64,000 nucleotides of DNA from Natronospirales bacterium. GTDB lineage: Bacteria; Pseudomonadota; Gammaproteobacteria; Natronospirales; JAIVGZ01. The DNA is taken from NCBI GenBank assembly GCA_020201335.1, contig JAIVGZ010000003.1, positions 1,781 to 65,780 of the forward strand, written 5' to 3'. Numbering within the stretch: position 1 is the stretch's first letter; each line of letters opens with the position of its first letter. This document shows positions 13,285-26,952 of this stretch, one piece after another. The position numbers and the translations under genes were made by a program. Below the pieces are notes generated by a model, which worked only from the letters and a program-made list of their open reading frames with translations, was not told the DNA's origin and searched no databases.

Positions 13285-13454
13285 GCTGCGTACAACGGCC
13301 CCGCACTCACGCGGGGGCCGCTTGTTGAAGAATAGGATGACATCCGTGCCCACGCGACATACGCCTTCTCGGTACTGCGCGCGTAGTGGCGGACCCGGAC
13401 TGCATCGCGGATTGACTGAAGGAACGCGGATTCTCCCATCACGCCTCCATGCAT
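13285..13454 (-). pseudogene. intI: Integron integrase (IntI) N-terminal remnant, frameshifted and 3'-truncated
   Basis: The minus strand reads MHGGVMGESAFLQSIRDAVRVRHYARSTEKAYVAWAR, then frame-shifts to ..VILFFNKRPPRECGAVV. This matches the IntI N-terminus (..IRxRHYSxRTExAYVxWxRRFIxFHxKRHPxEMG..). Only about 56 codons remain before the stop of the ICMT gene. Confidence 0.8.
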
Positions 13455-13554
13455 TTTGGGAAAAATGGCAACGAAATAAATCTAGACTGAACGGGAAACC
13501 GCGTCTATGGTTTAGCGAAACGGAGCGTCCCGACAGGAAAGTTTATGACCCTCT

Positions 13555-13612
13555 CCATTCCAATAACTAACCCAACTATGACCCTCCAACGGGTCACACA
13601 TAGTCGTTAGCG
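13555..13612 (+). promoter_or_regulatory. attI recombination site (junction GTTAGCG at 13606-13612)
   Basis: Lies directly between the intI start and the first cassette. TTAGCGCCAACG (13607 onward) is the reverse complement of CGTTGGCGCTAA, which precedes the first attC (14190-14201). The left side resembles the second junction at 18395-18455. Confidence 0.7.
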
Positions 13613-13617
13613 CCAAC

Positions 13618-14187
13618 GTGATCTCACGCTTTGCGTCAGGCATACAACGAGACGTATTGACACGCGCTGGCCTGACTGCTTGTGCCTTAATTGTGGTGAT
13701 TGCTAGCGGATTGCTACTGAGCATGTACTCTGACAAGGCGTTCAATTGGATTCCAGTCGCTGTAGGAATCTCCTTAGTGAGTTGGGCGCTCTTTTGGTTC
13801 CGGAGATATCGACAAGCACGCACCTGGATGCCTGTCGAGGCGCAGGTGCTGAAAATTATGGAAAAGTCGCGAGGTGTGCGAATCGGCGTCGGTCTCTACC
13901 TATACGTGTATCCATCCGTGACTTTTCGGTATGAGGTGCACGGGCAAACCTACATGGGGGGCGAGTCGAGCGTGGAGATTGAGAATATTTGGGTTCCCGA
14001 CTATGAGCGCACCTCCGCGTTCTGGGCAGACTGGGCAGATGGGAAACGGATTACCGCCGTTTACAATCCCACGAATCCTAAACAGGCGATGCTGATGACG
14101 GAACTTAGTAAGAGCCGGTTGTCCCACCACGCCGCTGTTCTGAGTGCAGGACTTCTTGTGCTTGTTTTAGGCGTGATTCTTCTGTGA
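13618..14187 (+). CDS. Cassette 1: DUF3592-like membrane protein
   Basis: 189 aa with TM helices at both ends. The central ..W.PVEAQV......YPSVTFRYEVHGQTY.G......GKRITAVYNPTNPKQAML.. pattern is typical of DUF3592. GTG start. Confidence 0.6.
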   Translation: MISRFASGIQRDVLTRAGLTACALIVVIASGLLLSMYSDKAFNWIPVAVGISLVSWALFWFRRYRQARTWMPVEAQVLKIMEKSRGVRIGVGLYLYVYPSVTFRYEVHGQTYMGGESSVEIENIWVPDYERTSAFWADWADGKRITAVYNPTNPKQAMLMTELSKSRLSHHAAVLSAGLLVLVLGVILL

Positions 14188-14192
14188 GGGTT

Positions 14193-14320
14193 GGCGCTAA
14201 CAATGCATCGGAGCGGCCGCGCTCCGCGGTTTCTAGGGAGGGTCTGGTAAAGATGACAAGGATAAAGTTCCAATCTGAAATCTCGGCGGCGTCGCGCGCC
14301 GCTCAACGCAGTCGTTAGAG
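14193..14320 (+). repeat. attC 1 (class A, about 128 bp)
   Basis: GGCGCTAAC...CATCGGAGCGGCCGCGC...GCGCGCCGCTCAACGCAGTC GTTAGAG. Confidence 0.85.
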
Positions 14321-14326
14321 GACGCT

Positions 14327-14869
14327 ATGTCCGTCGCCGACGTCGCCACCATTACGATCGCGCTCATCGCCCTCGCGGTATCCCTATACGCTGTCACGCG
14401 CGACCGAAGGCAACGACAGTTCGACTTGTTCCTTCGCTGCCACGATCGGTTAAAGCAGTTACAGAAGGAGACCCCTTTACTGCCGCCATCTCAGTATCTA
14501 GAAATGGAGGAAGACCCCGGGAACCCGGCTTGGGAGAAGTACCAAATCCAATCGACCGAGGCACAGTTGCGGCTTGATAGCGAATTAGAGACTGCATGCT
14601 ACTTGGCGGTGAAGGGCGAACTGAATGTGGAAGTATTCTTCAATTTATTTCGTGGCTGGCTTGCGATGAGAGATGTGATGTGGACCTCGGGGGTAGGCGA
14701 ACATCGCGCTCGAAATCACCCATACACAGTGGCGGTCATCGAAATGTGTAGAAGGCGTAAGCTGTTACCAATTAAGGATAATGTAGAGTTTCGAGAGATG
14801 ACGAAACTCGTGAACGAATACCTTGGCGAGTCGGCGTCCTCTAACAAAGCATTGGAGCGGTCGCGCTAA
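14327..14869 (+). CDS. Cassette 2: hypothetical protein with an N-terminal TM anchor
   Basis: 180-aa ORF starting 12 nt after the attC core. No recognisable family. The stop lies inside its attC. Confidence 0.6.
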   Translation: MSVADVATITIALIALAVSLYAVTRDRRQRQFDLFLRCHDRLKQLQKETPLLPPSQYLEMEEDPGNPAWEKYQIQSTEAQLRLDSELETACYLAVKGELNVEVFFNLFRGWLAMRDVMWTSGVGEHRARNHPYTVAVIEMCRRRKLLPIKDNVEFREMTKLVNEYLGESASSNKALERSR

Positions 14870-14968
14870 GGAGTGTTCGATGAATGGACTGGTAAAGACG
14901 AAGTTGGGAATAAAGTGCTTTCTGTCAGCGTCGCCGCTTCCGCGCGCCGCTCAACGCGGGTGTTAGGC
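14834..14968 (+). repeat. attC 2 (class A)
   Basis: GCGTCCTCTAAC (reverse complement of 14314 GTTAGAGGACGC) ... CCGCTCAACGCGGGT GTTAGGC. Confidence 0.85.
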
Positions 14969-14972
14969 GCCA

Positions 14973-15485
14973 ATGAGTGATCTCCGGCCAATCGTCGACT
15001 GGATGCAGGCGACTCACGATAAAGAGGCCGCGGAACGCATCGTCGCCTCACAGTGGCGCTATCTCGCGAGCTATTTCGAGAAATCCGTCGCCTATGCCAA
15101 CGTTCTCGTCATTGCGGGATACGCCAGCTACTTCGGGCTATGGACACTTGCCCGTACGCACATAGATACCGGCCCAGCGACTGCGTCAGCACTGCTAATG
15201 GCCATCTCAGTTGTGCTTTATCTGTCGTTCCAAGTGTTTTCGTTATTCCGAATGAGTCAGTCCGTCATTGACCATCAGGCTGCATTGAAAACTAGGCTGC
15301 GGGGAAAAAGCCCGCAGGAGATGGTAAAGGAACTCGAGGAAATTGAAGATGAGGCGGCAGAGTCCACGCTGAAGCTTATGCCCTGGTGGCGTCGGTTTGT
15401 GCTTTCGGCCATTGTTGCGGGCCTCGCCGCGTTTGGAATCCTCGGCTACGAGTTTGTACGTGTTCTGCACTATATTGGCGCCTAA
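14973..15485 (+). CDS. Cassette 3: hypothetical membrane protein (about 4 TM plus a central coiled segment)
   Basis: 170-aa ORF filling the cassette. No recognisable family. Confidence 0.6.
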   Translation: MSDLRPIVDWMQATHDKEAAERIVASQWRYLASYFEKSVAYANVLVIAGYASYFGLWTLARTHIDTGPATASALLMAISVVLYLSFQVFSLFRMSQSVIDHQAALKTRLRGKSPQEMVKELEEIEDEAAESTLKLMPWWRRFVLSAIVAGLAAFGILGYEFVRVLHYIGA

Positions 15486-15602
15486 CGATGCATTGGAGCG
15501 GCCGCGCTCCGCGGTTTCTAGGGAGGGACTGGGAAAGATGATCGGGATAAAGTGCAGATCGGCAAGGTTGGCGGCGCGTGCCGCTCAACGCAGGGGCTAA
15601 GC
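15477..15602 (+). repeat. attC 3 (class A) with a non-canonical core GCTAAGC
   Basis: GGCGCCTAAC (reverse complement of 14962 GTTAGGCGCC) ... CCGCTCAACGCAGGG GCTAAGC. The second core base is C, not T. Confidence 0.75.
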
Positions 15603-15612
15603 GGCTGAGAAA

Positions 15613-16356
15613 ATGCGTGAGCTACTCGAACAATCGGAAGCGCTTCAGAACCTGTTGATATCGCAGGCAACCGGAGGCCGCGAAGACGATGCGGAGTTCG
15701 TGCGGCTCCGACAGATGCTCCTCTCCAATCCTGCGCTAGATCCGTTCGTCCCTCGCTTTGTTCGAACATGCAGGAACCTGTCGCAGTTTTGGCAGTTCAT
15801 AAAGTTCAGGTACGGCAGTTATGCCGAACGTCGAGATTACATATGGAACGAGTTCGCCCCTCTGCTCGACGCCCTGGAGCGCGGACCACTTTCACCCGCT
15901 GATCAGCTTGTCTCCGAGAAGCTTGAGACTTTCGATGCCTCACACGTGCAAGCCGCCTGGTCCAAGGCGCTTGAACGGCGCACATCCGATCCGGAAGGGG
16001 CGATAACGTCCGCCCGTACCCTGATCGAGTCTGTGTGCAAGCACATCCTCGATTCTGCAGAGGTGCCTTATGATGATGGGGCAGATCTTCCAAAGCTTTA
16101 CAAATTGACGGCAGAAGCCCTGAAGCTCGCGCCCTCGCAGCATACCGAGTCAGTGTTCAAGCAGATCCTGGGCGGCTGCACTGCCGTAGTGGAAGGGCTC
16201 GGCTCCCTGAGAAACCGCCTGAGTGACGCGCATGGAAAAGGTAGGATCGGCTCAAAGCCCGCCTCTCGCCACGCCGAGTTGGCCGTCAATCTCTCTGGCG
16301 CACTGGCTATTTTCCTGCTGGCGACATGGGAAGCACGAAACGAGGCAGCACCCTAA
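15613..16356 (+). CDS. Cassette 4: Abi_C-domain (abortive infection C-terminus, AbiJ/Abi-like) protein
   Basis: 247 aa. The C-terminal half (..ARTLIESVCKHIL...LYKLTAEAL......GLGSLRNRLSDAHGKG....RHAELAVNLSGALAIFLL..) matches the Abi_C (PF14355-type) pattern as recalled. Confidence 0.65.
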   Translation: MRELLEQSEALQNLLISQATGGREDDAEFVRLRQMLLSNPALDPFVPRFVRTCRNLSQFWQFIKFRYGSYAERRDYIWNEFAPLLDALERGPLSPADQLVSEKLETFDASHVQAAWSKALERRTSDPEGAITSARTLIESVCKHILDSAEVPYDDGADLPKLYKLTAEALKLAPSQHTESVFKQILGGCTAVVEGLGSLRNRLSDAHGKGRIGSKPASRHAELAVNLSGALAIFLLATWEARNEAAP

Positions 16357-16441
16357 CTATGCGTTCAACCAGGCTGCGGGGAGAGGCTACTGTGTTTCCT
16401 GATATTCTGTCGGCCCGCTACCGCTTAACGCGGCGTTATGG
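16351..16441 (+). repeat. attC 4 (class B, about 91 bp)
   Basis: CCCTAACTATGCGTTCAACC...CCGCTTAACGCGGC GTTATGG. The inner arms GCGTTCAA/GCTTAACGC pair. Confidence 0.8.
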
Positions 16442-16980
16442 TCATGGCCCCGCTCGCTGACCGCGTGACCGTGAATCTCACGCCGCTCGAAATCGCCGAG
16501 CGCCAGATCGACCGTGCGATTACTTTATTTCTGGACGATGCAGATTATATTTCCGCATCAACCCTCGCCGGTGCAGCGGAGGGAATAATTGGCGACCTCC
16601 TGCGGCGCGGTGGGCGTCCCTACGCTTTGGATGACATAGTGAAAGGCGCAATGGCATTAACTAAAGAAATGGATCCTTCTGATTCGTCCAAAAGAAAAGA
16701 CTACATAGCATTCGTGAACGACTTTCGAGATCGTCTAAAACACCTAAAGAGTGGTGAAACACTGCACTGCTCGGTCGATTACGAAGCTGCTTGCTTGATT
16801 GACCGTGCGATGGACAATTACTTCAATCTGACCGAAAGCGAGACCGAGACGATGCTCCGCTTTCGGAGGTTTAACTACTTCGAAATTGAGACGGGGCAGC
16901 CAAAACAATGCATTGGAGCGGCCGCGGAACCTGCCCCGATAAAAGAGAAGCTCCCGAGTGAAATGCTTCGGGAAAAATAA
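16438..16980 (+). CDS. Cassette 5: hypothetical cytoplasmic protein
   Basis: 180-aa ORF. Its 3' end reads through the partial attC. No recognisable family. Confidence 0.55.
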   Translation: MVMAPLADRVTVNLTPLEIAERQIDRAITLFLDDADYISASTLAGAAEGIIGDLLRRGGRPYALDDIVKGAMALTKEMDPSDSSKRKDYIAFVNDFRDRLKHLKSGETLHCSVDYEAACLIDRAMDNYFNLTESETETMLRFRRFNYFEIETGQPKQCIGAAAEPAPIKEKLPSEMLREK

Positions 16981-16985
16981 AGCGT
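16897..16985 (+). repeat. attC 5, truncated (left arm and centre only)
   Basis: CAGCCAAAACAATGCATTGGAGCGGCCGCGGAACCTGCC..GGGAAAAATAAAGCG parallels the left two-thirds of attC 9 and 14. The right arm (GCGCGCCGCTCAACGC..GTTRRRY) is missing. Confidence 0.7.
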
Positions 16986-17012
16986 AGGCGAGCTCACGAA
17001 GGTAAAGAGATC

Positions 17013-18023
17013 ATGAAGAATAAAGGCCTGCTCCTTTTCCCAGTTCTGCTACTAGTTGCGCACATCGACGAAGTGCTAGCCGTTCAATCTCCCATGATTG
17101 ATAAGACTGACACTTGCTATCAGGGCGAATTCAGTAATCTTGAAAGCTACCTTTCTCGACCTATTACGAGAACGGCGTATGACGATCCGGTCCAGTTTGA
17201 GCGGGCAAGGGTCAGATACACCTGGTGGCGCGATAACTTCGATTGCGACTGGATCAGTTATTCAGTCGACGGTTTGGAGGTTAATGGCTTTGTTGTGAAG
17301 CCGACTGGCGACTCTCCACCAGAAGGGTGGCCCGTTGTAATTTTCAATCACGGGGGAAATGCCGACATCGGCTCGGTACGGTTCGAGTACATTGCAGCGC
17401 GCCTGTTCCCGATAGTTGAAGCCGGCTTCGTCGTTATGGGTACCCAGTACCGCGGCGCGAAGATTGACGGAGCCGATAGTCCGGACAGACTCCGGGATGA
17501 ATTCGGCGGAAGCGATGTCAACGATGTGCTCGCCTTGATTTCCATTGCAGATTCGATTCCGGAAGCGGATGGGAGCAGGATCGGAATGTATGGGATAAGC
17601 CGCGGCGGGATGATGAGTTTTCTTGCTGCGCGTCGTACAAACAGAATTTCGACAATAGTGGTACAAGATACGCCAACTGATTTGGTGCGAGGGTTGGAGT
17701 TCACGCCTGACATGGTGCGGGTATTTACCAAATGGATTCCTGACTATGAAAAGAATCCACATGAGGCCTTGATACAACGATCGGCGTTGTACTGGCTGGA
17801 TGAACTCGACCCAAACATGTCCGTATTGATCTTGCACGGCACTGCGGATCAACGGGTGAGTGCTGAACAGGCCTTGGTAACGGCACTTAAATTGCAGGAA
17901 TTGCGCCGCCAATATAAATTGGTTATCTACCCAAATGCGTCGCACGGTCTTCGTGAATATCATCAAGCCGTGGAAACAGAAATAATTGCTTGGTTCTCGT
18001 CGGTCCTCCGCAAGGATTACTGA
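17013..18023 (+). CDS. Secreted alpha/beta hydrolase (S9 prolyl-oligopeptidase/dienelactone-hydrolase-like)
   Basis: Signal peptide, nucleophile elbow GISRGGMM and ..LILHGTADQRV... 336 aa. Not bounded by an attC. Confidence 0.7.
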   Translation: MKNKGLLLFPVLLLVAHIDEVLAVQSPMIDKTDTCYQGEFSNLESYLSRPITRTAYDDPVQFERARVRYTWWRDNFDCDWISYSVDGLEVNGFVVKPTGDSPPEGWPVVIFNHGGNADIGSVRFEYIAARLFPIVEAGFVVMGTQYRGAKIDGADSPDRLRDEFGGSDVNDVLALISIADSIPEADGSRIGMYGISRGGMMSFLAARRTNRISTIVVQDTPTDLVRGLEFTPDMVRVFTKWIPDYEKNPHEALIQRSALYWLDELDPNMSVLILHGTADQRVSAEQALVTALKLQELRRQYKLVIYPNASHGLREYHQAVETEIIAWFSSVLRKDY

Positions 18024-18394
18024 TACACGGAGGGGCTGACCATAACTGTCTGTTTATCCAGCGTTAGCAAAGATGACGCCGCAGGATTTTCGCTCTGTGG
18101 AACGGACCGCCATGGCGCTAGCTAATTAGATCCGCCGCTCACTTTTCTGGGGGCGTTCGAGCAGCGCGAATGACCTGTCCTCCGTAATTAGTACCGCTTC
18201 CGGTCTCGCTCGCGCTGCCATCTCTGATCTCCTCACACTTTGGTGCATTCGGAGCAGAAGGCAGGTTCCATCACCTCATATTTGGGATGGATGAACGAGA
18301 GATGGACGAGTTCGTGCGGATTGGTGGACGAGCGGCGTTTCGATGCCCTACATTCTATTGCAACGAGCCCCAACGGACGGAGTCGGCATGCCTG

Positions 18395-18455
18395 AACGTT
18401 CCATATTAACTACCCCGCGTATAACCCCCCTGAGGGTCATACATAGGTGTTAGCG
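18395..18455 (+). promoter_or_regulatory. Second attI-like junction (GTTAGCG at 18449-18455)
   Basis: AACTACCCCGCGTATAACCCCCCTGAGGGTCATACATAGGTGTTAGCG resembles the attI at 13565-13612 (AACTAACCCAACTATGACCCTCCAACGGGTCACACATAGTCGTTAGCG). TTAGCGAACGAGCT is the reverse complement of AGCTCGTCCGCTAA (18951) with one mismatch. Confidence 0.6.
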
Positions 18456-18512
18456 AACGAGCTAGACCAGCCTCGTGCCGGGCGTATACTTGACCGAGAG
18501 AGGTAGGAGCGA

Positions 18513-18713
18513 ATGCGCAGACTTGACGAAATCGAGAACCAAATCAAGGCGCTCTCTCGCGAAGAGTTCAAAGAACTGCGCGAGTGGATTCTCGAGCGCG
18601 ATTGGGAAGCATGGGACGCTCAGGTCAGCCGTGACGCCGAGGCAGGGAAGCTGGACCACGCCTTGAACGAAGCGAGAGACGACTACAAGGCTGGGCGCTC
18701 GCGCGAGTTGTGA
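18513..18713 (+). CDS. Cassette 7: putative antitoxin partner of the ParE-like toxin
   Basis: 66-aa acidic helical protein overlapping the downstream toxin gene by 4 nt (GTGA). The antitoxin role is assigned by position. Confidence 0.55.
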   Translation: MRRLDEIENQIKALSREEFKELREWILERDWEAWDAQVSRDAEAGKLDHALNEARDDYKAGRSREL

Positions 18714-19084: not shown

Positions 19085-19104
19085 AACGGTCACACGGAGG
19101 TGCC

Positions 19105-19302
19105 ATGCCCCCGAAAATCCGGGACCTTATCGCAGAATTGGAGCGCGCCGGCTTCGTGGACCGGGGCGGCAAAGGCAGCCACAGGAACTTCGTCCATCCC
19201 GGGGTTAAAATGCCGGTAACCGTCTCTGGCAACCTTGGCGACGATGCGAAGCACTACCAGACCCGTGCAGTAAAGAGGGCGCTGGAGGAGGCGAAGAAAT
19301 GA
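19105..19302 (+). CDS. hicA: Cassette 8: HicA-family mRNA interferase toxin
   Basis: 65 aa. ..LERAGFVDRGGKGSHRNFVHPG.. is the HicA/YcfA signature. Confidence 0.8.
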   Translation: MPPKIRDLIAELERAGFVDRGGKGSHRNFVHPGVKMPVTVSGNLGDDAKHYQTRAVKRALEEAKK

Positions 19303-19538
19303 AGGACAGCGCGAAGTACGTCAAGTTGGTGGAATGGTCCGAGGAGGACCAATGCTACGTCGGTAGCGCTCCGGGTCTCATCTTTGGCGGATGCCACGGC
19401 GACAACGAGAAGGCCGTCTTTGACGAACTTTGCGACGTCGTCGAGGAGACGATCGCGCTTTATCACAAGGATGGCAAAGCTCTGCCGCCTCCAACTGCAG
19501 GGCAGGACTTAGCCAACAAGCTGCAGACCGTCGCCTAA
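19299..19538 (+). CDS. hicB: Cassette 8: HicB-family antitoxin
   Basis: 79 aa overlapping hicA by 4 nt. ..WSEEDQCYVGSAPGL..CHGDNEKAVFDEL..VEETIALY.. is HicB-like. Confidence 0.7.
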   Translation: MKDSAKYVKLVEWSEEDQCYVGSAPGLIFGGCHGDNEKAVFDELCDVVEETIALYHKDGKALPPPTAGQDLANKLQTVA

Positions 19539-19658
19539 CAAAGCATTGGAGCGGCCGCGCTCCGCGGTTTCTAGGGAGGGACTGGTAAAGATGACAAGGA
19601 TAAAGTTCCGATCTGAAATCGCGGTGTGGTCGCGCGCCGCTCAACGCAGGTGTTAGAT
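19527..19658 (+). repeat. attC 8 (class A)
   Basis: ACCGTCGCCTAAC (reverse complement of 19078 GTTAGGCAACGGT, one mismatch) ... CCGCTCAACGCAGGT GTTAGAT. Confidence 0.85.
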
Positions 19659-19664
19659 GCCATC

Positions 19665-20237
19665 ATGAAGGCGTTGCTGGTCTCGGCAATCCTCCCCGCG
19701 TTTCTAGCGATTGCCAGTTGCGTCTCCACACCTACTGCGGTGGAGCAAGTTTCAGAATGGATTGAGCTACAGTATTGGCTCGATTCTGACTGTCGGTTTG
19801 TCGCTGCACCGACTGATGGCAATGACGCATCCGTCATCGACTTAGGACATGCCGGTGCTGCTTTTCTCCGCGCAGCACTGGTGCAAGAACTGCATGAGAT
19901 TGACTGGTCTCAAATTGAGAGCACGCGCGGACTCGCCTATAGAGGCGCCCCCCACGCACAAGCGGACCACATTGAAGACGAGATTGCGAGAAAAGGCCCG
20001 TGGCCTCTGACGGCGCGAGGCTTGCTGGATCCGACCCGGCCGACTGCTCCTACGTATGGGGCCCGCGCGATTTGTGGTTTCGACGAAAATGGAGAAATTG
20101 ACATGGTGATGCTCTACTCGTCGGAGTACGAAGGCGGGAGGCGCATCATCCCGCGGGCTGAACTCGAACCTGGGAGGAATATAGTTGATCCCGTCCACGT
20201 TCGGATTGAACTTCGATTGCTGTTCAACGGCATCTAA
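19665..20237 (+). CDS. Cassette 9: hypothetical lipoprotein
   Basis: Lipobox FLAIASC after the ATG at 19665. The tracked ORF start at 19626 lies inside the attC. No recognisable family. Confidence 0.6.
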   Translation: MKALLVSAILPAFLAIASCVSTPTAVEQVSEWIELQYWLDSDCRFVAAPTDGNDASVIDLGHAGAAFLRAALVQELHEIDWSQIESTRGLAYRGAPHAQADHIEDEIARKGPWPLTARGLLDPTRPTAPTYGARAICGFDENGEIDMVMLYSSEYEGGRRIIPRAELEPGRNIVDPVHVRIELRLLFNGI

Positions 20238-20358
20238 CGAAGCATTGGAGCGGTCGCGCGGAGCTGCCGATTAGCGAGGGACTGGAAATGCGTTCAGGGA
20301 TAAAGTGCTTCTCAACAGCGGTCGCCGGTCCGCGCGCCGCTCAACGCTGGGGTTAGGC
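20228..20358 (+). repeat. attC 9 (class A variant)
   Basis: ACGGCATCTAACGAAGCATTGGAGCGGTCGCGCGGAGCTGCC...GCGCGCCGCTCAACGCTGGG GTTAGGC. Confidence 0.85.
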
Positions 20359-20408
20359 AGTCGTAGAACCACTGATGTGCTTCCGGCGGATAGGGGTGAT
20401 CAACATTA

Positions 20409-20810
20409 ATGGTTAATACGATAGCTGCGCTGGTGGTACTGCTAACCGGCCTGTACTTGGTCACACTCTCCGCGTTCTCAGTTTTCGATTCGGGACGCGC
20501 TGCGCGCTTCCTTGAGGCGTTCGCGAGTAACAAAAGCGCTCACTTCGTGGAGCTTTCCCTTCGCCTTATCGTGGGAGTTAGCATACTGGTATACGCACCG
20601 CGCATGCTATTCCCAGACATGTTCACAGTGTTTGGCTGGATCATTACTGTTACGACCATCGGCTTATTCGCGATTCCTTGGCGGTGGCATCGCGACTTCG
20701 CTCAACAAGTGGTGCCTTTGGTTACCAAGCATCTCGGATTATTTTCAATTGGCTCGCTTGCGCTTGGAGCAGTTATCATGCTTTCGGTAATGTTTGGATA
20801 TGGCACTTAA
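20409..20810 (+). CDS. Cassette 10: hypothetical 4-TM membrane protein
   Basis: 133-aa hydrophobic ORF filling the cassette. Confidence 0.6.
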   Translation: MVNTIAALVVLLTGLYLVTLSAFSVFDSGRAARFLEAFASNKSAHFVELSLRLIVGVSILVYAPRMLFPDMFTVFGWIITVTTIGLFAIPWRWHRDFAQQVVPLVTKHLGLFSIGSLALGAVIMLSVMFGYGT

Positions 20811-20841
20811 AACGTGTAGACAACGCACACGTGGTGAAATC

Positions 20842-20972
20842 CGACGCCTAACTACGCGTTGGAGCGGCCTGATGAAAAGTAGGCGGCCATGCGCCTCGGG
20901 CGCGCTTTAATATTGTGCGCCCTCGGCGAATGGACAATACGCGGCGCCTGCCGCTCAACGCAGGGGTTAGAG
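20842..20972 (+). repeat. attC 10 (class C, about 131 bp)
   Basis: CGACGCCTAACTACGCGTTGGAGCGGCC...CTGCCGCTCAACGCAGGG GTTAGAG. The central part differs from class A and resembles attC 15. Confidence 0.8.
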
Positions 20973-20984
20973 CGCGGGTGACGA

Positions 20985-21254
20985 ATGCAGTTCGAATGGT
21001 CCAAGGAGAAGGCCCAAGCAAATGCGACAAAGCACGGGGTCACATTCTTGGAAGCCCGTACCGTATTCGGCGATCCGCTGTCCTCGACAACCCCGGACCC
21101 TGAGCACTCGCTGGACGAAGCTAGGTTCCTGATATTTGGTCGTTCTGTTACAGGTCGAGCCCTTGTCGTATCCTTTACCGAGCGTGGCGAAAGTATCCGC
21201 CTCATTTCGGCCCGTTCAATGACGCCGCGCGAGATTCGAGCCTATGAGCAATAA
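20985..21254 (+). CDS. brnT: Cassette 11: BrnT-family (DUF497) ribonuclease toxin
   Basis: 89 aa. ..FEWSKEKAQANATKHGVTFLEARTVFGDP......R.LIFG......LVVSFTERGESIRLISAR.. is the BrnT pattern. Confidence 0.8.
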   Translation: MQFEWSKEKAQANATKHGVTFLEARTVFGDPLSSTTPDPEHSLDEARFLIFGRSVTGRALVVSFTERGESIRLISARSMTPREIRAYEQ

Positions 21255-21450
21255 CGACGACAAGCTGAGAGACGAATACCCCGAGGACCTCATCCGCGGC
21301 GGGGAGCGGGGTAAGTACGCCGCGCGATATCGAGAAAGCGAACACTTCGTTGCGATAGATCCCGAAATGCACGAACTCTTTCCAGACGCGGAGTCTGTGA
21401 ATAAAGCACTCCGTGAGTATGCCGCCGAGAAGAAGAAGTCCGCGCCCTAA
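21244..21450 (+). CDS. brnA: Cassette 11: BrnA-like antitoxin
   Basis: 68 aa overlapping brnT by 11 nt. ..GERGKYAARY....VAIDPEMHELFPDAESVNKALR.. is BrnA-like. Confidence 0.65.
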   Translation: MSNNDDKLRDEYPEDLIRGGERGKYAARYRESEHFVAIDPEMHELFPDAESVNKALREYAAEKKKSAP

Positions 21451-21570
21451 CAAAGCATTGGAGCGGCCGCGCTCCGCGGTTTCTATGGAGGGACTGGTAA
21501 AGATGTCAGGGATAAAGTGCAACTTGGCTAGCTCGGCGCTGTCACGCGCCGCTCAACGCGGGTGTTAGGC
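21439..21570 (+). repeat. attC 11 (class A)
   Basis: TCCGCGCCCTAACAAAGCATTGGAGCGGCCGCGC...CACGCGCCGCTCAACGCGGGT GTTAGGC. Confidence 0.85.
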
Positions 21571-21573
21571 CGC

Positions 21574-22227
21574 ATGACGAAACCTAGGAAGCCCATGAAT
21601 AGAGCAAAGCTCGCCCGACTCCTACTCTTCGCATCCATTCTTTATGTAATTGGCTTCTACTTCATTGGCAGCGCCATAAAGCCGGGATACTCACAGATTA
21701 CAAACTTTGTCAGTGAGTACAACGCAGCTGGAACGTCTTGGGCTCAAACGCTTACTTATGCAGGTTTTGCTGCCACGTCAGCAATCCTTGCGGCGTTCTT
21801 AGTCACAACTTTGCCACTTCTTAATGTTTCCGGCGCAAGTCGCATGGGAGCATGGCTTTTGTGGTCTGTTCCCGCGTCATACCTTCTTGCTGTGATTGCC
21901 CCTTGTGATGCTGGGTGCCCGCTTGACGGTTCGACCAGCCAGATCGCACACAATTTGCTTGCCATCATCACCTACTTCGGCATGGGCGCCAGCATCTTCC
22001 TAATTTCACTGGCCCCGGAATTCGGTAACTTCAAGCTGCGCCGCGGCTTCCTGCTTGTGACCGGCATCGCCTTTCCAGTAGTGTTCTTCCTCATGGTTCA
22101 GCCAGAGCTAGCCTTGTGGGGCGGCTTGATGCAGCGTCTACTAGACGTTGCAATGGCTATATCTTTGGCAATAGTTGTTTGGACACTCGCGCCGACCGAC
22201 CGCGATGTACAGCGGACTGCGGCCTAA
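21574..22227 (+). CDS. Cassette 12: polytopic membrane protein (possibly DUF998-like)
   Basis: About 217 aa and 6 TM segments. The ATG at 21574 lies just after the attC core. Confidence 0.55.
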   Translation: MTKPRKPMNRAKLARLLLFASILYVIGFYFIGSAIKPGYSQITNFVSEYNAAGTSWAQTLTYAGFAATSAILAAFLVTTLPLLNVSGASRMGAWLLWSVPASYLLAVIAPCDAGCPLDGSTSQIAHNLLAIITYFGMGASIFLISLAPEFGNFKLRRGFLLVTGIAFPVVFFLMVQPELALWGGLMQRLLDVAMAISLAIVVWTLAPTDRDVQRTAA

Positions 22228-22282
22228 CAATTCGTTCAAGCCGAACTGGCTTCGCCAGTCGCCTTAACTCAGGTGGTTAGAC
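22219..22282 (+). repeat. attC 12 (short class, 64 bp)
   Basis: GCGGCCTAAC (exact reverse complement of 21564 GTTAGGCCGC) AATTCGTTCAAGCC...GCCTTAACTCAGGTG GTTAGAC. Confidence 0.85.
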
Positions 22283-22320
22283 CTCACCACAACTTTCATG
22301 GGTGTTCGAAGGAGAGAAGC

Positions 22321-22839
22321 ATGTTCCTGCCAAAGTGGCTCATTGCACTGCTAGTTTTGGTCTTTACGGCTCTTGCCGCTTGGACCTATCTTTTGGCGAT
22401 TGAGCGCAACCCACTTCCATTCCCTGACCGTGGGTCGCGCATTTTCTCCACACCGTCTCCTGAAGCCAAAGAAGCCCTTGTTTCTCTTCTTGCCCGCCAC
22501 GGTATCAGGGAACGGTTTCAGGCCAACAGCAGCGGAATCCTTCGTTCAATCATGTGGGATGGAACCATCATCAACTACGCCCCACCGGACGTCGTTGAGA
22601 AACTTGGCCACGCCACTGCCAGTATTGGACTTGTCGCTGATGATCCGGTGGCTAGCGCCAACGCTGCGGCCGAATTTTTGCGGTCGCACGGCTTTGAGGC
22701 AAGCGTTGTCCTAGACGCTGAGCCTGAGTTGCCTATTGCCTTTGTTGTGACCAACGCGACGTCAGGCACCGTGCTGAACTTTCGTAAGCATGTCATCCAT
22801 CTACCGCGGCCACAATCTGTCGACACAAATCCCGAGTGA
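22321..22839 (+). CDS. Cassette 13: hypothetical protein with an N-terminal TM anchor
   Basis: ATG at 22321 preceded by AAGGAGAG. 172 aa. No recognisable family. Confidence 0.6.
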   Translation: MFLPKWLIALLVLVFTALAAWTYLLAIERNPLPFPDRGSRIFSTPSPEAKEALVSLLARHGIRERFQANSSGILRSIMWDGTIINYAPPDVVEKLGHATASIGLVADDPVASANAAAEFLRSHGFEASVVLDAEPELPIAFVVTNATSGTVLNFRKHVIHLPRPQSVDTNPE

Positions 22840-22880
22840 GGTCTAACCATGCGTTCAAGCGGACCGCGGGGAGAGGCTAT
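22836..22880 (+). repeat. attC 13, truncated (class B left arm only)
   Basis: GTGAGGTCTAAC (exact reverse complement of 22276 GTTAGACCTCAC) CATGCGTTCAAGCGGACCGCGGGGAGAGGCTAT parallels the left half of attC 4, then breaks. Confidence 0.75.
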
Positions 22881-22883
22881 CGG

Positions 22884-22991
22884 AAAGGGACAAAGGTCAT
22901 CTTGCTTTTGGCAGGTGGTGACAAGTCCACGCAACGGCGTGATATTGAACGCGCTGTCGATCTACTCAACCAGTTGGACCTTGAATCATGA
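22884..22991 (+). pseudogene. 3' remnant of an addiction-module killer (HigB/RelE-type) toxin gene
   Basis: Reads ..VILLLAGGDKSTQRRDIERAVDLLNQLDLES*, the conserved C-terminus of the 'addiction module killer protein' family. The stop overlaps the downstream ATG (ATGA). The N-terminal ~70 codons are absent. Confidence 0.7.
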
Positions 22992-23203
22992 GCCACTCTA
23001 AGCCAAAGAAACCGAAGATTGTGCCTTTCGATGCCGCCCGATACCTAGGCGACGACAAGGCAATCGCGGAGTACATGACCGCCGTGCTTGAAAGCGACGA
23101 TCCCGATCTGTTGCTGGCGGCGCTCGGAGACGTAGCTCGTGCTAAAGGAATGGGCGAGGTTGCAAAGGCCTTGGGGATTCAGCTTACCGCTAAGGTGGCA
23201 TGA
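22988..23203 (+). CDS. Addiction-module antidote protein (HigA-family), probably shortened
   Basis: ..PFDAARYLGDDKAIAEYMTAVLESDDPDLLLAALGDVARAKGM.. matches the antidote family N-terminus. The HTH region appears abbreviated (71 aa). Confidence 0.65.
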   Translation: MSHSKPKKPKIVPFDAARYLGDDKAIAEYMTAVLESDDPDLLLAALGDVARAKGMGEVAKALGIQLTAKVA

Positions 23204-23204
23204 T

Positions 23205-23333
23205 TGGCTCTAACGAAGCATTGGAGCGGCCGCGCGGAGGCAGTTTCAATGAAGGGACTGGAAATGAGTATATGGATAAAGTGCAATTCAATTAGGCAGG
23301 CGCGTCCGCACGCCGCTAAACGCGTCGTTATGC
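23205..23333 (+). repeat. attC 14 (class A variant)
   Basis: TGGCTCTAACGAAGCATTGGAGCGGCCGCGCGGAGGCAG...GCACGCCGCTAAACGCGTC GTTATGC. Confidence 0.8.
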
Positions 23334-23363
23334 AGCGCCACGCAAACCTTAAGGAGTACCACT

Positions 23364-23858
23364 ATGGTTGAAAATCAATTTGCTGCTACCGCAAAACCGA
23401 TTCCGCCGGAGTGTGTCGTCCGCGTTCCACCGTGGGTATGGTTTCTCCTGTCACTGTTGGTAGCAATCGGACTGCATCGCATTTTGCCACTTGAGGTCCT
23501 GCCACCGACGGTGAACTCTCTGTTTGGCTGGGTCGTAGTTGGCTTGGGTATGGCCGTGTTGGCGTGGTCGGAACAGCAATTCTCCCGCCACCGAACTTCC
23601 CATGACCATAAGGCAGTCGCATCGACGCTGATTACGACGGGTCCGTTCCGGTTCTCACGGAACCCCGTGTATCTTGGGCTCTCGATACTGCTCGTCGGAT
23701 TCGCAATTACTTTGAATATCCTTTGGCTCCTGCTTGCGGCACCACTGGCGCTACTCGTGATGCAGTTGCATGTAGTGCCGAGGGAGGAGGCGTGCTTGGA
23801 GCAGTTGTTTCCAGAGGCGTATCCGCGTTATCGCCAATCTGTACGGCGCTGGTTATGA
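23364..23858 (+). CDS. Cassette 15: ICMT/PEMT-family methyltransferase-like membrane protein
   Basis: 164 aa. ..TTGPFRFSRNPVYLGL.....VPREEACLEQLFPEAYPRYRQSVRRWL. Confidence 0.7.
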   Translation: MVENQFAATAKPIPPECVVRVPPWVWFLLSLLVAIGLHRILPLEVLPPTVNSLFGWVVVGLGMAVLAWSEQQFSRHRTSHDHKAVASTLITTGPFRFSRNPVYLGLSILLVGFAITLNILWLLLAAPLALLVMQLHVVPREEACLEQLFPEAYPRYRQSVRRWL

Positions 23859-23871
23859 CAGATATGGTCGA

Positions 23872-23999
23872 CTGCATAACTACGCGTTGGAGCGGCCAGT
23901 GAAAACTTGTTGGTCATGCGCCTCGGGCGCGCTTCGCTATTGTGCGCCCACTGCGCATGGGCAAACGGCGGCGAGTGCCGCTCAACGCGGGTGTTAGAC
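23872..23999 (+). repeat. attC 15 (class C)
   Basis: CTGCATAAC (exact reverse complement of 23327 GTTATGCAG) TACGCGTTGGAGCGGCC...GTGCCGCTCAACGCGGGT GTTAGAC. Confidence 0.85.
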
Positions 24000-24014
24000 A
24001 TCACTGGAGAAGGA

Positions 24015-24446
24015 ATGCGTCATTCAATAATTCTCGCCATAGTGCCCTTACTACTCTGTGCTCCTTCCGTTCATTCACAGGAGCCAGTGTCAAACAATGT
24101 ACGCACGGTTGAGCGGTTTATTGCAGCATTCAACGCTCACGACAGTGGCGCCATGGGGGCATTAGTTGCTGACGATGTCGCCTGGTTGAATATCACTGGC
24201 GAAGACGTGACGGTGGTGGTCAAGGGCAAGAGCGAGTTGGTTGCAAGTATGAACGATTATTTTGAAGCCTGCCCAACATGCCAATCAGTATTATTCGGAA
24301 CCATATCTACTCCTGACAGGATCAGCGCTATTGAGATTGCAAGTTGGCAGGGTACGACTGGTCTAAGGTCACAGAGGAGTATCTCTGTATACGAGTTTTC
24401 AGAGAGCTTGATTCAACGTGTCTATTATTTCCCCTCTGAGAATTAG
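24015..24446 (+). CDS. Cassette 16: secreted SnoaL-like/NTF2-fold protein
   Basis: Signal peptide MRHSIILAIVPLLLCAPSVHS. ..VERFIAAFNAHDSGAMGALVADDVAW.. is typical of SnoaL-like domains. Confidence 0.65.
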   Translation: MRHSIILAIVPLLLCAPSVHSQEPVSNNVRTVERFIAAFNAHDSGAMGALVADDVAWLNITGEDVTVVVKGKSELVASMNDYFEACPTCQSVLFGTISTPDRISAIEIASWQGTTGLRSQRSISVYEFSESLIQRVYYFPSEN

Positions 24447-24447
24447 A

Positions 24448-24471
24448 GTGACGTCGACGCTGGGGTTATGC
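24448..24471 (+). repeat. attC 16 remnant (collapsed to about 24 bp)
   Basis: GTGACGTC (compare the expected GTGATGTCTAAC from 23993 GTTAGACATCAC) is fused directly to GACGCTGGGGTTATGC, the right end of a class A attC. Confidence 0.55.
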
Positions 24472-24504
24472 GGACTTCCGGCGCCAAGGGTAGAGGAGGA
24501 GCGC

Positions 24505-25020: not shown

Positions 25021-25060
25021 GGGTGCACCTAACCGTGAACAACTTAAGAAGGAGCGATTA

Positions 25061-26905: not shown

Positions 26906-26952
26906 CGAATCGCATAAACAAAATAGTATCAGCACAAGCAACGGGGAACCGT

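What the first reader, a model, noticed from the sequence alone, without database searches (positions are those of the whole stretch)
13285..24471. Sedentary chromosomal integron with 15 attC-bounded units, not signposted by any large ORF
From 13607 to 24471 every credible ORF is on the plus strand. The ORFs are separated by 64-135 bp elements that start RYYYAAC (GCCTAAC, TCTAAC, GCATAAC) and end GTTRRRY (GTTAGGC, GTTAGAT, GTTATGC).

The bases following each GTT are the reverse complement of the bases preceding the RYYYAAC at the 3' end of the same unit:
- 14314 GTTAGAGGACGC / 14834 GCGTCCTCTAAC
- 21564 GTTAGGCCGC / 22219 GCGGCCTAAC
- 22276 GTTAGACCTCAC / 22836 GTGAGGTCTAAC
- 23327 GTTATGCAG / 23872 CTGCATAAC

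This is the footprint of circularisable integron cassettes. The inner arms pair imperfectly (CATTGGAGCGGCCGCGC versus GCGCGCCGCTCAACG), leaving unpaired bases as in folded attC sites.

An IntI N-terminal remnant sits divergently at the 5' end. The island is visibly less G+C-rich than its flanks. Most cassette proteins have no recognisable family, so the array is a reservoir of undescribed functions.
Basis: partly seen in the sequence, partly recalled or inferred. Interest (0 to 1): 0.85.

Follow-up and report, generated by a model that had tools for sequence, protein, structure and literature searches.

The report
Chromosomal integron array, integrase deleted
This is a genuine integron gene-cassette array in the chromosome of an uncultured soil-type gammaproteobacterium whose integrase gene has been almost entirely deleted; it is a well-known kind of element, so it is a solid but ordinary find.

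Summary
Window 13.3-27.6 kb is a low-G+C island (0.55 against 0.64-0.66 in the flanks). It carries a one-directional array of promoterless cassettes separated by attC sites.

There are 12 complete attC sites of 61-130 nt, plus at least 6 truncated relics. A covariance model built only from attC sites of other genomes recovers 10 of the 12 at my exact coordinates (E 4e-26 to 6e-7). An 11th, a4, scores E 0.02. The 12th, a12, is 83% identical to the aadB attC of class 1 resistance integrons.

Each cassette's first bases are the reverse complement of the bases before its own TAAC, in perfect runs of 9-13 nt.

Only the first 32 codons of intI survive (13344-13439, minus strand). No other integrase fragment exists in the 64 kb.

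Relatives carry the same attC family next to intact integron integrases.

Corrections: the array runs to about 27.6 kb, not 24.5 kb. About half of the cassette proteins have a recognisable family. "Sedentary" is untested.

An unexpected second attI-like site lies inside the array at 18398-18459.

Verdict: a degenerate chromosomal integron (a CALIN in IntegronFinder terms), and a new member of a known kind.

The parts
13344..13439 (-). intI remnant: the first 32 codons of an integron integrase. The rest of the gene is deleted, and the junction abuts the terminator hairpin of the upstream PEMT-family gene.
   Evidence: 22/32 identical to the intact IntI of L064; the tblastn alignment that contains this stretch has E 1e-10. 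Pfam Phage_int_SAM_4 positions 1-28. TIGR02249 positions 1-27. It is the only hit of a 9-sequence IntI profile in the six-frame window, E 4.6e-8.
13540..13612 (+). attI site (attI-1), with the crossover GTT at 13606-13608. It contains GACCC-N6-GGGTC, then ACACATAGTC-GTTAGCG.
   Evidence: The same architecture occurs in L064, directly upstream of its intact intI. The motif GGGWCAYACATARNNGTTAG is expected 0 times by chance in the window. The first cassette's end, GTTGGCGCTAAC, is the reverse complement of GTTAGCGCCAAC at the attI.
13606..14320 (+). Cassette 1: ORF 13618-14187 (DUF3592), with attC 14195-14320.
   Evidence: CM E 1.5e-10
14314..14968 (+). Cassette 2: ORF 14327-14869 (no family), with attC 14839-14968.
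   Evidence: (E 5.8e-13)
14962..15602 (+). Cassette 3: ORF 14973-15485 (no family; its stop codon lies in the TAA of the R'' box), with attC 15480-15602. The R' box of this attC has decayed to GCTAAGC.
   Evidence: E 3.4e-9
15596..16441 (+). Cassette 4: ORF 15613-16356 (Abi_C / AbiJ-like abortive-infection protein), with a 91-nt attC of a different type at 16351-16441.
   Evidence: AbiJ E 2.3e-19; E 0.02
16435..18069 (+). Cassette 5, a fused unit. It holds ORF 16438-16980 (no family), which reads through a 5'-half attC relic at 16899-16926, and ORF 17013-18023 (S9-family serine hydrolase). It ends in a truncated attC at 18040-18069.
   Evidence: The R'' TGACCATAAC at 18037-18046 is the reverse complement of the cassette start GTTATGGTCA at 16435. 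The relic is a member of repeat family D3. Pfam result.
18066..18397 (.). Unassigned 330-bp spacer between the truncated attC and the internal attI-like site. It has no IntI signal and no similarity to attI-1's upstream region.
18398..18459 (+). Second attI-like site inside the array (attI-2), with GTT at 18449. It contains AACCC-N6-GGGTC, then ATACATAGGT-GTTAGCG.
   Evidence: Local alignment to attI-1 scores 41, against 18.5 +/- 2.2 (maximum 29) in shuffles. The attI motif matches. The next cassette's end, GCTCGTCCGCTAAC, is complementary to GTTAGCGAACGAGC at 13 of 14 positions.
18449..19084 (+). Cassette 6: a toxin-antitoxin pair, 18513-18713 (putative antitoxin) and 18710-18964 (ParE-like). 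It has its own promoter-like site at 18463-18490 and attC 18959-19084.
   Evidence: E 1.9e-9. Homologous attC-bounded cassettes occur in L010, L065 and L024.
19078..19658 (+). Cassette 7: HicA toxin 19105-19302 and a HicB-like partner 19299-19538, with attC 19533-19658.
   Evidence: fold z -3.3; E 1.4e-12
19652..20358 (+). Cassette 8: ORF 19665-20237 (no family), with attC 20232-20358.
   Evidence: E 2.1e-14
20352..20972 (+). Cassette 9: ORF 20409-20810 (membrane protein, no family), with attC 20846-20972. This attC is the type that is widespread in relatives.
   Evidence: E 4.1e-25
20966..21570 (+). Cassette 10: BrnT toxin 20985-21254 and its partner 21244-21450, with attC 21445-21570.
   Evidence: E 5.9e-12. 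A homologous two-gene cassette lies between attC sites in L028.
21564..22282 (+). Cassette 11: DUF998 membrane protein 21574-22227, with the 61-nt attC 22222-22282.
   Evidence: The attC is 82.6% identical over about 69 nt to the aadB attC of class 1 integrons, found in 4243 plasmid records. Fold z -3.0, with the canonical bulged G in TTGAAC.
22276..22879 (+). Cassette 12: ORF 22321-22839 (no family), with only the 5' half of its attC at 22841-22879. This half is the same type as the attC at 16351.
   Evidence: D8, 86%; 12-nt complementarity
22880..23333 (+). Cassette 13, 5'-truncated: a C-terminal fragment of an addiction-module toxin ending at 23001, a shortened HI1420-type antitoxin 22988-23203, and attC 23208-23333.
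   Evidence: profile positions 2-55 of 90; E 6.1e-7
23327..23999 (+). Cassette 14: PEMT/ICMT-family methyltransferase 23364-23858, with attC 23874-23999.
   Evidence: E 4.2e-26
23993..24472 (+). Cassette 15: SnoaL-like protein 24015-24446. Only the last roughly 20 nt of its attC remain (24452-24472, GACGCTGGGGTTATGCG).
24466..27600 (+). Decayed distal part of the array. It holds five plus-strand ORFs: 24505-25020 (no family), 25061-25873 (SAM methyltransferase), 25924-26457 (MAPEG), 26531-26905 (glyoxalase-like, weak) and 26953-27561 (DUF2306). Only attC scraps remain.
   Evidence: G+C stays at 0.54-0.59 up to about 27.7 kb. GTTATGTGGCA at 26491 is complementary to TGCCACATAAC at 26896-26906, an 11-nt run. 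R''-like GCACCTAAC lies at 25025 and GCGCCTAAC at 27550. A 34-nt copy of the cassette-14 gene start lies at 25877-25910 (D9). There are no significant CM hits here. Pfam results.

Best explanation
The region is a chromosomal integron that has lost its integrase.

**History (inferred from established integron biology).** An IntI tyrosine recombinase was encoded divergently at the left end. It captured circular, promoterless cassettes by recombining the folded bottom strand of each cassette's attC site with attI, crossing over between the G and TT of GTTAGCG at 13606. This built a one-directional array. It is also why each cassette starts with the reverse complement of the bases before its own TAAC.

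**Later events (read from the sequence).**
- A deletion removed intI from codon 33 onward.
- Several attC sites were truncated, fusing neighbouring cassettes.
- The distal 3 kb lost almost all attC sequence.

**Present state (inferred).** In cis the array is frozen as a stock of accessory genes. These include an AbiJ-like defence gene, membrane proteins, methyltransferases and a hydrolase. Three apparently intact toxin-antitoxin cassettes, which typically carry their own promoters, would penalise loss of the array. The 10 well-preserved attC sites could still be recombined if an IntI were supplied in trans. IntegronFinder would label the element a CALIN.
For: - **attC sites.** Twelve complete sites lie on one strand, recognised by a covariance model built only from other genomes, and none lies outside the island. 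The fold has R box, spacer, L box and two bulges on one arm. In the external family 95% of cells are paired, 11 pairs show compensatory changes, and 0 of 500 shuffles reach the observed values.
- **Link to a characterised attC.** One attC is homologous to the aadB attC of class 1 integrons.
- **Cassette ends.** Cognate start/end complementarity runs 9-13 nt, against a 4.4-nt null.
- **Integrase remnant.** It is limited to 32 codons.
- **attI.** The site is shared with L064, where it abuts an intact TIGR02249 integrase of 439 bits.
- **Relatives.** Nine genomes carry this attC family beside IntI that is 50-57% identical to IntI1, in the same divergent geometry; examples are L087 and L029+L074.
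- **Shared cassettes.** The same TA cassettes are attC-bounded in four other genomes.
- **Composition.** The island is low in G+C.
- **Chromosomal context.** mgtE and two further genes are syntenic with L064 at 78% nucleotide identity.
- **Precedent.** Integrase loss with a retained array is documented in Xanthomonas (PMC12444791) and in CALIN elements (PMC4889954).
Against: - IntegronFinder itself and its attC model could not be run, so my model covers one attC family. The 91-nt and 61-nt sites score weakly with it (E 0.02 and 0.4) and rest on other evidence.
- No sigma-70 consensus promoter was found in the intI-attI region, so expression of the cassettes is unsupported.
- An internal attI-like site (18398-18459) is not expected in a simple single array.
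- No recombination or expression was measured.
- Whether an IntI exists elsewhere in this genome is unknown, because only 64 kb is available and the genome is not in the searchable collections.
Confidence: 0.93

Rival explanations
1. The array is not frozen. An integron integrase encoded elsewhere in the same genome or on a plasmid still excises and reshuffles these cassettes in trans, so the locus is a working satellite array rather than a fossil.
For: Ten attC sites keep intact TAAC/GTTA cores, bulges and long cognate complementarity. In complete genomes, half of CALIN elements are in genomes that encode IntI elsewhere (PMC4889954). CALINs can be mobilised in trans (PMC12444791). The relative L064 has its integron at a different position near the same mgtE block.
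Against: No IntI catalytic domain occurs anywhere in the 64 kb. There are several truncated attC sites, a mutated R' box (GCTAAGC) and an attC-free distal third. These show decay rather than maintenance.
Confidence: 0.25
2. The locus is two integrons joined head to tail: platform 1 (intI remnant, attI-1, cassettes 1-5) and platform 2 (attI-2, cassettes 6 onward). Both have lost their integrases. It is not one array.
For: A second attI-like site, with the same GGGTCAYACATAG-NN-GTTAGCG architecture, lies at 18398-18459, exactly where a new cassette series starts. The first cassette after it is complementary to it. The two copies are only about 75% identical, which suggests old or independent origin rather than recent duplication. 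The cassette before it ends in a truncated attC followed by 330 bp of unrelated DNA.
Against: There is no IntI-like coding remnant and no similarity to the intI-attI intergenic region upstream of attI-2. The same attC type is used on both sides. No relative with this arrangement was found, and the metagenome scan returned only chance matches.
Confidence: 0.4
3. The repeats are ordinary intergenic palindromes (REP/BIME- or MITE-like elements) between co-directional genes, not attC sites.
For: They are imperfect palindromes in intergenic positions. A true REP-like hairpin does occur just outside the array at 12113-12183.
Against: The repeats are confined to one low-G+C island and one strand. Cassette-specific start/end complementarity is not a property of REPs. 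The family sits beside intact integron integrases in nine other genomes. One copy is homologous to the aadB attC. An IntI remnant and an attI lie at the array head.
Confidence: 0.02

Closest known systems
Xanthomonas chromosomal integrons with inactivated intI (Gillings et al. 2005, as summarised in PMC12444791)
   Same: Both are chromosomal arrays of attC-bounded cassettes of mostly unknown function, in high-G+C Gammaproteobacteria. In both, intI is destroyed by large deletions, frameshifts or stop codons and the array is retained and stabilised.
   Different: The genomic site differs: next to mgtE here, downstream of ilvD in Xanthomonas. The attC family and the IntI clade also differ. Here only 32 codons of intI remain, and the array contains a second attI-like site.
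[quoted passage not shown]
   Same: At least two attC sites lie close together with no IntI detectable nearby. This is exactly the operational class the locus would fall in.
   Different: Only 6.6% of CALINs have more than 10 attC sites, and 95% have no recognisable intI pseudogene nearby. This one has 12 complete sites, and it keeps both attI and an N-terminal intI stub, so its origin by integrase deletion is directly visible.
Vibrio cholerae superintegron and other large sedentary chromosomal integrons (PMC13108822, PMC11023631)
   Same: Both have a one-directional array, attC sites of 120-130 nt, several toxin-antitoxin cassettes interspersed, and defence-type cassettes (bioRxiv 10.1101/2024.07.02.601686).
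   Different: The Vibrio SCI has an intact, SOS-regulated intIA, about 180 cassettes and highly homogeneous attC sites. Here intI is gone, there are about 20 cassettes, and four attC types are mixed. Mean identity within the main type is 73%.
Complete integrons of related uncultured Gammaproteobacteria (loci L087, L029+L074, L055, L064 from GTDB genomes)
   Same: They share the attC family (CTAAC-N-GCGTTGGAGCGG ... GCCGCTCAACGC-N4-GTTAG), the divergent intI-attI-array geometry, and homologous TA cassettes.
   Different: Those loci keep a full-length TIGR02249 integrase. The window's predominant attC subtype (AAAGCATTGGAGCGGCCGCGC...) scores lower against their consensus, at 30-55 bits against 90-137 bits.
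attC of the aadB/aadA cassettes of class 1 mobile integrons
   Same: The 61-nt attC at 22222-22282 is 82.6% identical over about 69 nt. It has the same R and L boxes and the same bulged G.
   Different: Here it belongs to a DUF998 membrane-protein cassette in a chromosomal array, not to a resistance gene on a plasmid.

Membership tests
Complete integron | A full-length integron integrase gene (tyrosine recombinase with the IntI-specific insertion; TIGR02249 / intI_Cterm) | tested here: not met
   Only codons 1-32 remain (13344-13439, minus strand). TIGR02249 scores 19.5 bits against a 265-bit cutoff. An IntI profile finds no other fragment in six-frame translations of all 64 kb.
Complete integron | An attI recombination site next to the 5' end of intI, at the head of the array | tested here: met
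   13540-13612, with GTTAGCG at 13606. The architecture and motif are shared with the attI beside the intact intI of L064. The first cassette end is complementary to it over 12 nt. Recombination activity was not testable.
Complete integron | A cassette promoter Pc reading into the array | tested here: inconclusive
   No sigma-70 consensus match in 13200-13700. The scan is crude, and Pc may have been lost with intI.
attC site (59-base element) | Inverse core R'' (..TAAC) and core R' (GTTA..) at the two ends, with L''/L' inner repeats | tested here: met
   TAAC in 12 of 12 and GTTA in 11 of 12 complete sites. The strict RYYYAAC and GTTRRRY consensus holds in 5 of 12 and 7 of 12.
attC site (59-base element) | A single-stranded (bottom-strand) hairpin with paired R box, unpaired central spacer, L stem with extrahelical bases on one arm, and a variable terminal loop | tested here: met
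   DNA folds of all 12 sites. In 61 family members from other genomes, two conserved bulge columns are seen, 95% of cells are paired and 11 pairs show compensatory changes.
attC site (59-base element) | Recognition by an attC covariance model | tested here: met
   A model built from 61 non-window attC sites gives 10 hits with E <= 6e-7 at the exact site coordinates, all on the plus strand, and none outside the island. IntegronFinder's own attC_4 model was not available.
attC site (59-base element) | Recombination by IntI in vivo | not testable with these tools
   Needs a suicide-conjugation or excision assay.
Integron gene cassette | The cassette's first bases (after the G of GTT) are the reverse complement of the bases preceding its own AAC, which is the footprint of a circular intermediate | tested here: met
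   10 of the 16 start/end pairings tested have perfect runs of 9-13 nt, and 3 more have a single mismatch. Non-cognate pairs average 4.4 nt.
Integron gene cassette | One promoterless ORF (or a TA pair) per unit, all co-oriented with the attC at the 3' end | tested here: met
   Units measure 473-839 bp, apart from the fused ones. Stop codons often lie in the TAA of R''. Minus-strand ORFs have no Pfam match.
CALIN (IntegronFinder class) | At least two attC sites clustered with no integron integrase within the clustering distance | tested here: met
   12 attC sites lie within 10 kb and there is no IntI catalytic domain in the window. The classification was made with my own model, not with IntegronFinder.
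Sedentary chromosomal integron (definition of PMC4889954) | Present in all genomes of the species, or more than 19 attC sites | tested here: not met
   There are 12 complete attC sites plus at least 6 relics, below the 19-site criterion. Frequency within the species is not testable, because the genome is absent from the collections. Chromosomal location is supported by synteny of the mgtE block with L064.

The most novel reading that the evidence does not exclude
The internal attI-like site at 18398-18459 may be a real second recombination platform. On this reading the locus is a head-to-tail fusion of two integrons that both lost their integrases. Alternatively it is a single array that acquired a second, internal insertion point. 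If attI-2 is still recognised by a trans-acting IntI, new cassettes could enter the middle of the array, and the segment between the two attI sites could be excised or exchanged as a multi-cassette block. That behaviour has not been described for integrons, to my knowledge. The one literature search on this was uninformative because of word matching.
Probability: 0.2. Interest if true: 0.5.

Novelty: new member of a known kind. Interest (0 to 1): 0.3.

Why it matters
The locus is a clean, fully dissected example of how a chromosomal integron dies. The integrase is deleted down to a 32-codon stub while attI survives. The attC sites range from pristine to truncated, cassettes have fused, and toxin-antitoxin cassettes are retained.

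It also documents a 120-130-nt attC family that is widespread in uncultured soil and groundwater Gammaproteobacteria, Betaproteobacteria and Nitrospira genomes. One cassette site links that family to the aadB/aadA attC type of clinical class 1 integrons. This is relevant to the question of where resistance-cassette attC sites come from.

None of this changes how integrons are understood. The cassette content is of routine interest for gene-discovery screens: an AbiJ-like defence gene and about 10 ORFs without a family.

Tried and rejected
- **Rfam scan of the window.** No hits. This is uninformative for attC.
- **Strict RYYYAAC...GTTRRRY pair scan.** It missed nearly all sites because the outer consensus positions are degenerate here. 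I replaced it with family-specific patterns and a covariance model.
- **Second IntI remnant upstream of attI-2.** None was found by DNA alignment (score 16 against 17.8 in shuffles), by tblastn or by profile search.
- **Metagenome scan with the attI motif.** Nine matches, all without IntI or any similarity to the window, so these are chance matches.
- **Exact-protein look-ups to identify the source genome.** Nothing on record. The organism can only be placed near the uncultured gammaproteobacterium of L064, at 78% nucleotide identity in the mgtE block.
- **An attC-like inverted repeat at 12113-12183, upstream of the left-flank genes.** I rejected it as an attC. It is a fully paired REP-like hairpin (TGTGGGAGCGAAT...ATTCGCGAC), it gets no covariance-model hit, and it lies in host-like G+C.
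- **Sigma-70 promoter scan for Pc.** Nothing found.
- **Inverted-repeat finder on the array.** It misses attC arms because of their bulges.
- **Literature search for tandem or duplicated attI.** It failed because "attI" matched "attitude".
- **Replication-strand inference from GC skew.** Too weak to use: flank skews are -0.012 on the left and +0.024 on the right.
- **Not done.** Large homology searches and structure prediction for the orphan cassette proteins, because they would not change the verdict.

Full report
**What is there**

The window is G+C-rich, at 0.66 left of 13.3 kb and 0.64 right of 27.7 kb. Between about 13.3 and 27.7 kb the G+C falls to 0.48-0.59. In this island the long ORFs with protein-family support are all on the plus strand. 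The ten longest minus-strand ORFs have no Pfam match.

The ORFs are separated by repeated elements. I delimited these by their conserved ends. Twelve are complete:
- 14195-14320
- 14839-14968
- 15480-15602
- 16351-16441
- 18959-19084
- 19533-19658
- 20232-20358
- 20846-20972
- 21445-21570
- 22222-22282
- 23208-23333
- 23874-23999

They fall into four types:
- Eight sites of about 126 nt, with mean pairwise identity 73%.
- Two sites of about 126 nt of a second type, 81% identical to each other.
- One site of 91 nt.
- One site of 61 nt.

Truncated copies lie at 16899-16926, 18040-18069, 22841-22879 and 24452-24472. Scraps lie further right.

**Check of the observation**

More generally, the bases following the GTT at the start of a unit are the reverse complement of the bases preceding the TAAC at the end of the same unit.
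- 10 of the 16 start/end pairings I tested have perfect runs of 9-13 nt.
- Three more have one mismatch in about 14 nt.
- Non-cognate start/end combinations average 4.4 nt.

This is the signature of units that once existed as circles closed through their recombination site.

Folding the bottom strand of each element as DNA gives the canonical attC architecture. There is a paired R box (CTAAC/GTTAG), an unpaired spacer, and an L stem (GCGTTGAGCGG against CCGCTCCAATGC) with two single-base bulges on the same arm. A variable terminal region closes the fold. Energy z-scores range from -0.3 to -3.4.

The strict RYYYAAC and GTTRRRY consensus is met by only 5 and 7 of the 12 sites. The invariant core is TAAC...GTTA. 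The site at 15480-15602 has a decayed R' box, GCTAAGC.

**Independent tests that these are attC sites**

A pattern taken from the two conserved inner boxes (TTGGAGCGG-N72-92-GCCGCTCAACGC) found 91 stretches in one-genome-per-species bacterial assemblies. They came mostly from uncultured Gammaproteobacteria (several Steroidobacteraceae), Betaproteobacteria and a Nitrospira.

Sixty-one of the 109 individual matches also carry the flanking TAAC and GTTA that the pattern did not require. These 61 sites contain no window sequence. I aligned them and built a covariance model from them. On that alignment:
- 95% of cells form standard pairs.
- 11 pairs show compensatory double changes.
- No shuffle out of 500 reaches the observed values.
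- Sliding the partners by 1-3 columns collapses pairing to 29-39%.

I then scanned the whole window with all filters off.
- The model hits ten of my twelve sites at the exact coordinates, all on the plus strand, with E from 4e-26 to 6e-7.
- The 91-nt site scores E 0.02.
- Nothing else in the 64 kb is significant.

The 61-nt site is a different attC type. It is 82.6% identical over about 69 nt to the attC that follows aadB in class 1 integrons, found in 4243 plasmid records. It folds with the classical bulged G.

**Integrase and attI**

Nine of the fetched loci encode an integrase 50-57% identical to IntI1 next to these attC sites. The L064 protein scores 439 bits on TIGR02249 "integron integrase", against a cutoff of 265. 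In L087 and in the contiguous pair L029+L074, the integrase lies divergently upstream of 11 and at least 18 co-oriented attC sites.

In the window, the minus strand at 13344-13439 encodes MGESAFLQSIRDAVRVRHYARSTEKAYVAWAR.
- It is 22/32 identical to the N-terminus of the L064 integrase; the tblastn alignment containing this stretch has E 1e-10.
- It matches positions 1-28 of Pfam Phage_int_SAM_4.
- It matches positions 1-27 of TIGR02249.

After codon 32 the reading frame runs into the terminator hairpin of the neighbouring PEMT-family gene. A profile of nine integron integrases, searched against all six-frame fragments of the window, finds only this stub (E 4.6e-8; the next best hit is 0.065). 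So intI was deleted from codon 33 onward. No catalytic domain survives in the 64 kb.

Between the stub and the first cassette lies the attI site: GACCC-N6-GGGTC followed by ACACATAGTC-GTTAGCG, with the GTT at 13606. L064 has the same arrangement directly upstream of its intact intI. The derived motif occurs only twice in the window, with zero expected by chance.

**Anatomy of the array**

Up to 24.47 kb there are fifteen units (see the parts list).

Gene content:

| Unit | Content |
|---|---|
| 1 | DUF3592 |
| 2, 3 | Orphan proteins |
| 4 | Abi_C / AbiJ-like protein (PADLOC AbiJ, E 2e-19) |
| 5 | Fused unit: an orphan ORF and an S9-family hydrolase |
| 6 | ParE-like toxin-antitoxin pair |
| 7 | HicA with a HicB-like partner |
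| 8, 9 | Orphan secreted or membrane proteins |
| 10 | BrnT with its partner |
| 11 | DUF998 |
| 12 | Orphan protein |
| 13 | 5'-truncated toxin with a shortened HI1420-type antitoxin |
| 14 | PEMT/ICMT methyltransferase |
| 15 | SnoaL-like protein |

Twelve of about 25 ORFs pass a Pfam threshold, so "most have no family" is an overstatement.

Homologues of the ParE-like and BrnT pairs occur as attC-bounded cassettes in the arrays of L010, L065, L024 and L028. That is what mobile cassettes should look like.

The island does not stop at 24471. Five more plus-strand genes follow, up to 27561: an orphan, a SAM methyltransferase, a MAPEG protein, a weak glyoxalase-like protein and DUF2306. Only attC scraps remain there:
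- One cognate start/end pair, 26491/26906 (an 11-nt run).
- R''-like ends at 25025 and 27550.
- A 34-nt copy of the cassette-14 gene start at 25877-25910.
- No significant covariance-model hit.

I read this stretch as the old, decayed end of the array. It abuts mgtE (27723-29015, minus strand). mgtE and the two genes after it are syntenic with L064 at 78% nucleotide identity, which places the element in a chromosome.

**An unexpected feature**

A second attI-like site lies inside the array at 18398-18459. It reads AACCC-N6-GGGTC-ATACATAGGT-GTTAGCG.
- It aligns to attI-1 with score 41, against 18.5 +/- 2.2 (maximum 29) in shuffles.
- The cassette that follows it ends with its reverse complement, matching at 13 of 14 positions.
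- The preceding cassette ends in a truncated attC, followed by 330 bp with no similarity to anything I could test and no integrase signal.

Either a second integron platform was once joined here and lost its integrase completely, or attI was duplicated into the array. I could not decide between these. No relative shows this arrangement, and a metagenome scan with the attI motif gave only chance matches.

**How it most likely works**

- **Shown:** the sites, their fold, the cassette-end complementarity, the attI, the integrase stub, and the association of this attC family with intact integrases elsewhere.
- **Inferred from established integron biology:**
  - Cassettes were inserted one at a time at attI by IntI, which recombined the folded bottom strand of attC.
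  - The array is now fixed in cis because the recombinase is gone.
  - The three apparently intact TA cassettes disfavour loss of the region, as shown for Vibrio in PMC13108822. One of them has a promoter-like site at 18463-18490.
- **Not shown:**
  - Any transcription. No sigma-70 consensus promoter was found near attI.
  - Any present-day recombination.
  - Whether an IntI elsewhere in the genome still acts on the ten well-kept attC sites.

The GC skew of the flanks is -0.012 on the left and +0.024 on the right. That is too weak to say whether the bottom strands sit on the leading-strand template, as reported for sedentary integrons (PMC11023631).

**Comparison with what is known**

The closest precedents are:
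- The CALIN class of IntegronFinder (PMC4889954).

By that paper's definitions this locus is a CALIN. It is unusual in two ways. It has more than 10 attC sites, which only 6.6% of CALINs do. It also keeps a visible intI stub and attI, whereas 95% of CALINs have no recognisable intI pseudogene nearby.

It does not meet the paper's more-than-19-site criterion for "sedentary chromosomal integron". The alternative criterion, presence in all genomes of the species, cannot be tested, because the genome is not in the searchable collections. It is not a complete integron, because the integrase test fails.

**Verdict**

The element is a new instance of a well-known kind, with one modestly unusual feature: the internal attI-like site. 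Interest is low to moderate.

Noticed in passing
window 18398-18459 (with 18066-18397 upstream): A second attI-like site lies in the middle of the cassette array, about 75% identical to the attI at 13557-13612. It is preceded by 330 bp of unassignable DNA with no integrase remnant.
   Followed up: partly
window 12113-12183: A REP-like palindromic element (…CTGTGGGAGCGAATCTGTGATTCGCGAC…) is flanked by the inverted repeat CTAACACCAGC/GCTGGTTTAG. It lies between ORF 11508-12116 and the TylF-family methyltransferase gene. It superficially resembles an attC but is not one, and it is single-copy in the window.
   Followed up: partly
window 12870-13268 and L077 6216-6659: The PEMT/ICMT-family gene immediately left of the intI stub is a distant paralogue of cassette 14 (27-34% identity). 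It is 42% identical to a gene that directly follows the only attC detected in the fetched part of L077, an unrelated MAG. This hints that the left-flank genes may themselves be former cassette material, even though their G+C is host-like (0.64).
   Followed up: partly
window 25877-25910 vs 23417-23450: A 34-nt, 97% identical copy of the 5' coding region of the cassette-14 PEMT gene sits between the methyltransferase and MAPEG genes. It is a scar of a deletion or recombination between cassettes in the decayed distal part.
   Followed up: no
L064 1-8000 vs window 28388-30634: The closest relative found shares the mgtE block at 78% nucleotide identity. Its intact integron (intI 6418-7374, minus strand) lies about 4 kb to the other side of that block. 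The integron therefore occupies a different position relative to mgtE in the two genomes.
   Followed up: partly
window 22222-22282: A 61-nt attC in this environmental chromosomal array is 83% identical to the aadB attC of clinical class 1 integrons (4243 plasmid records). This is a possible pointer to the kind of host in which such resistance-cassette attC sites originated.
   Followed up: partly
window 15613-16356: Cassette 4 encodes an AbiJ-like / Abi_C protein (PADLOC E 2e-19). This fits recent reports that chromosomal integrons stock anti-phage defence genes.
   Followed up: no
window 16899-16980: ORF 16438-16980 reads through a 5'-half attC relic whose R'' reads GCCAAAAC instead of ..TAAC. 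Loss of the usual in-R'' TAA stop appears to have extended the protein by about 24 codons.
   Followed up: no
loci L025, L027, L042, L046, L078, L080 (Nitrospira MAG RAS-S14-bin2) and others: The same attC family occurs in arrays in MAGs assigned to very different phyla: Nitrospira, Dehalococcoidia (L037, with an IntI) and Acholeplasmataceae (L044). This reflects either wide horizontal spread of this integron lineage or binning contamination.
   Followed up: no
window 44001-46000: A second, milder G+C dip (0.585-0.595) with strong positive AT skew (0.17-0.18) lies outside the finding. It was not examined.
   Followed up: no
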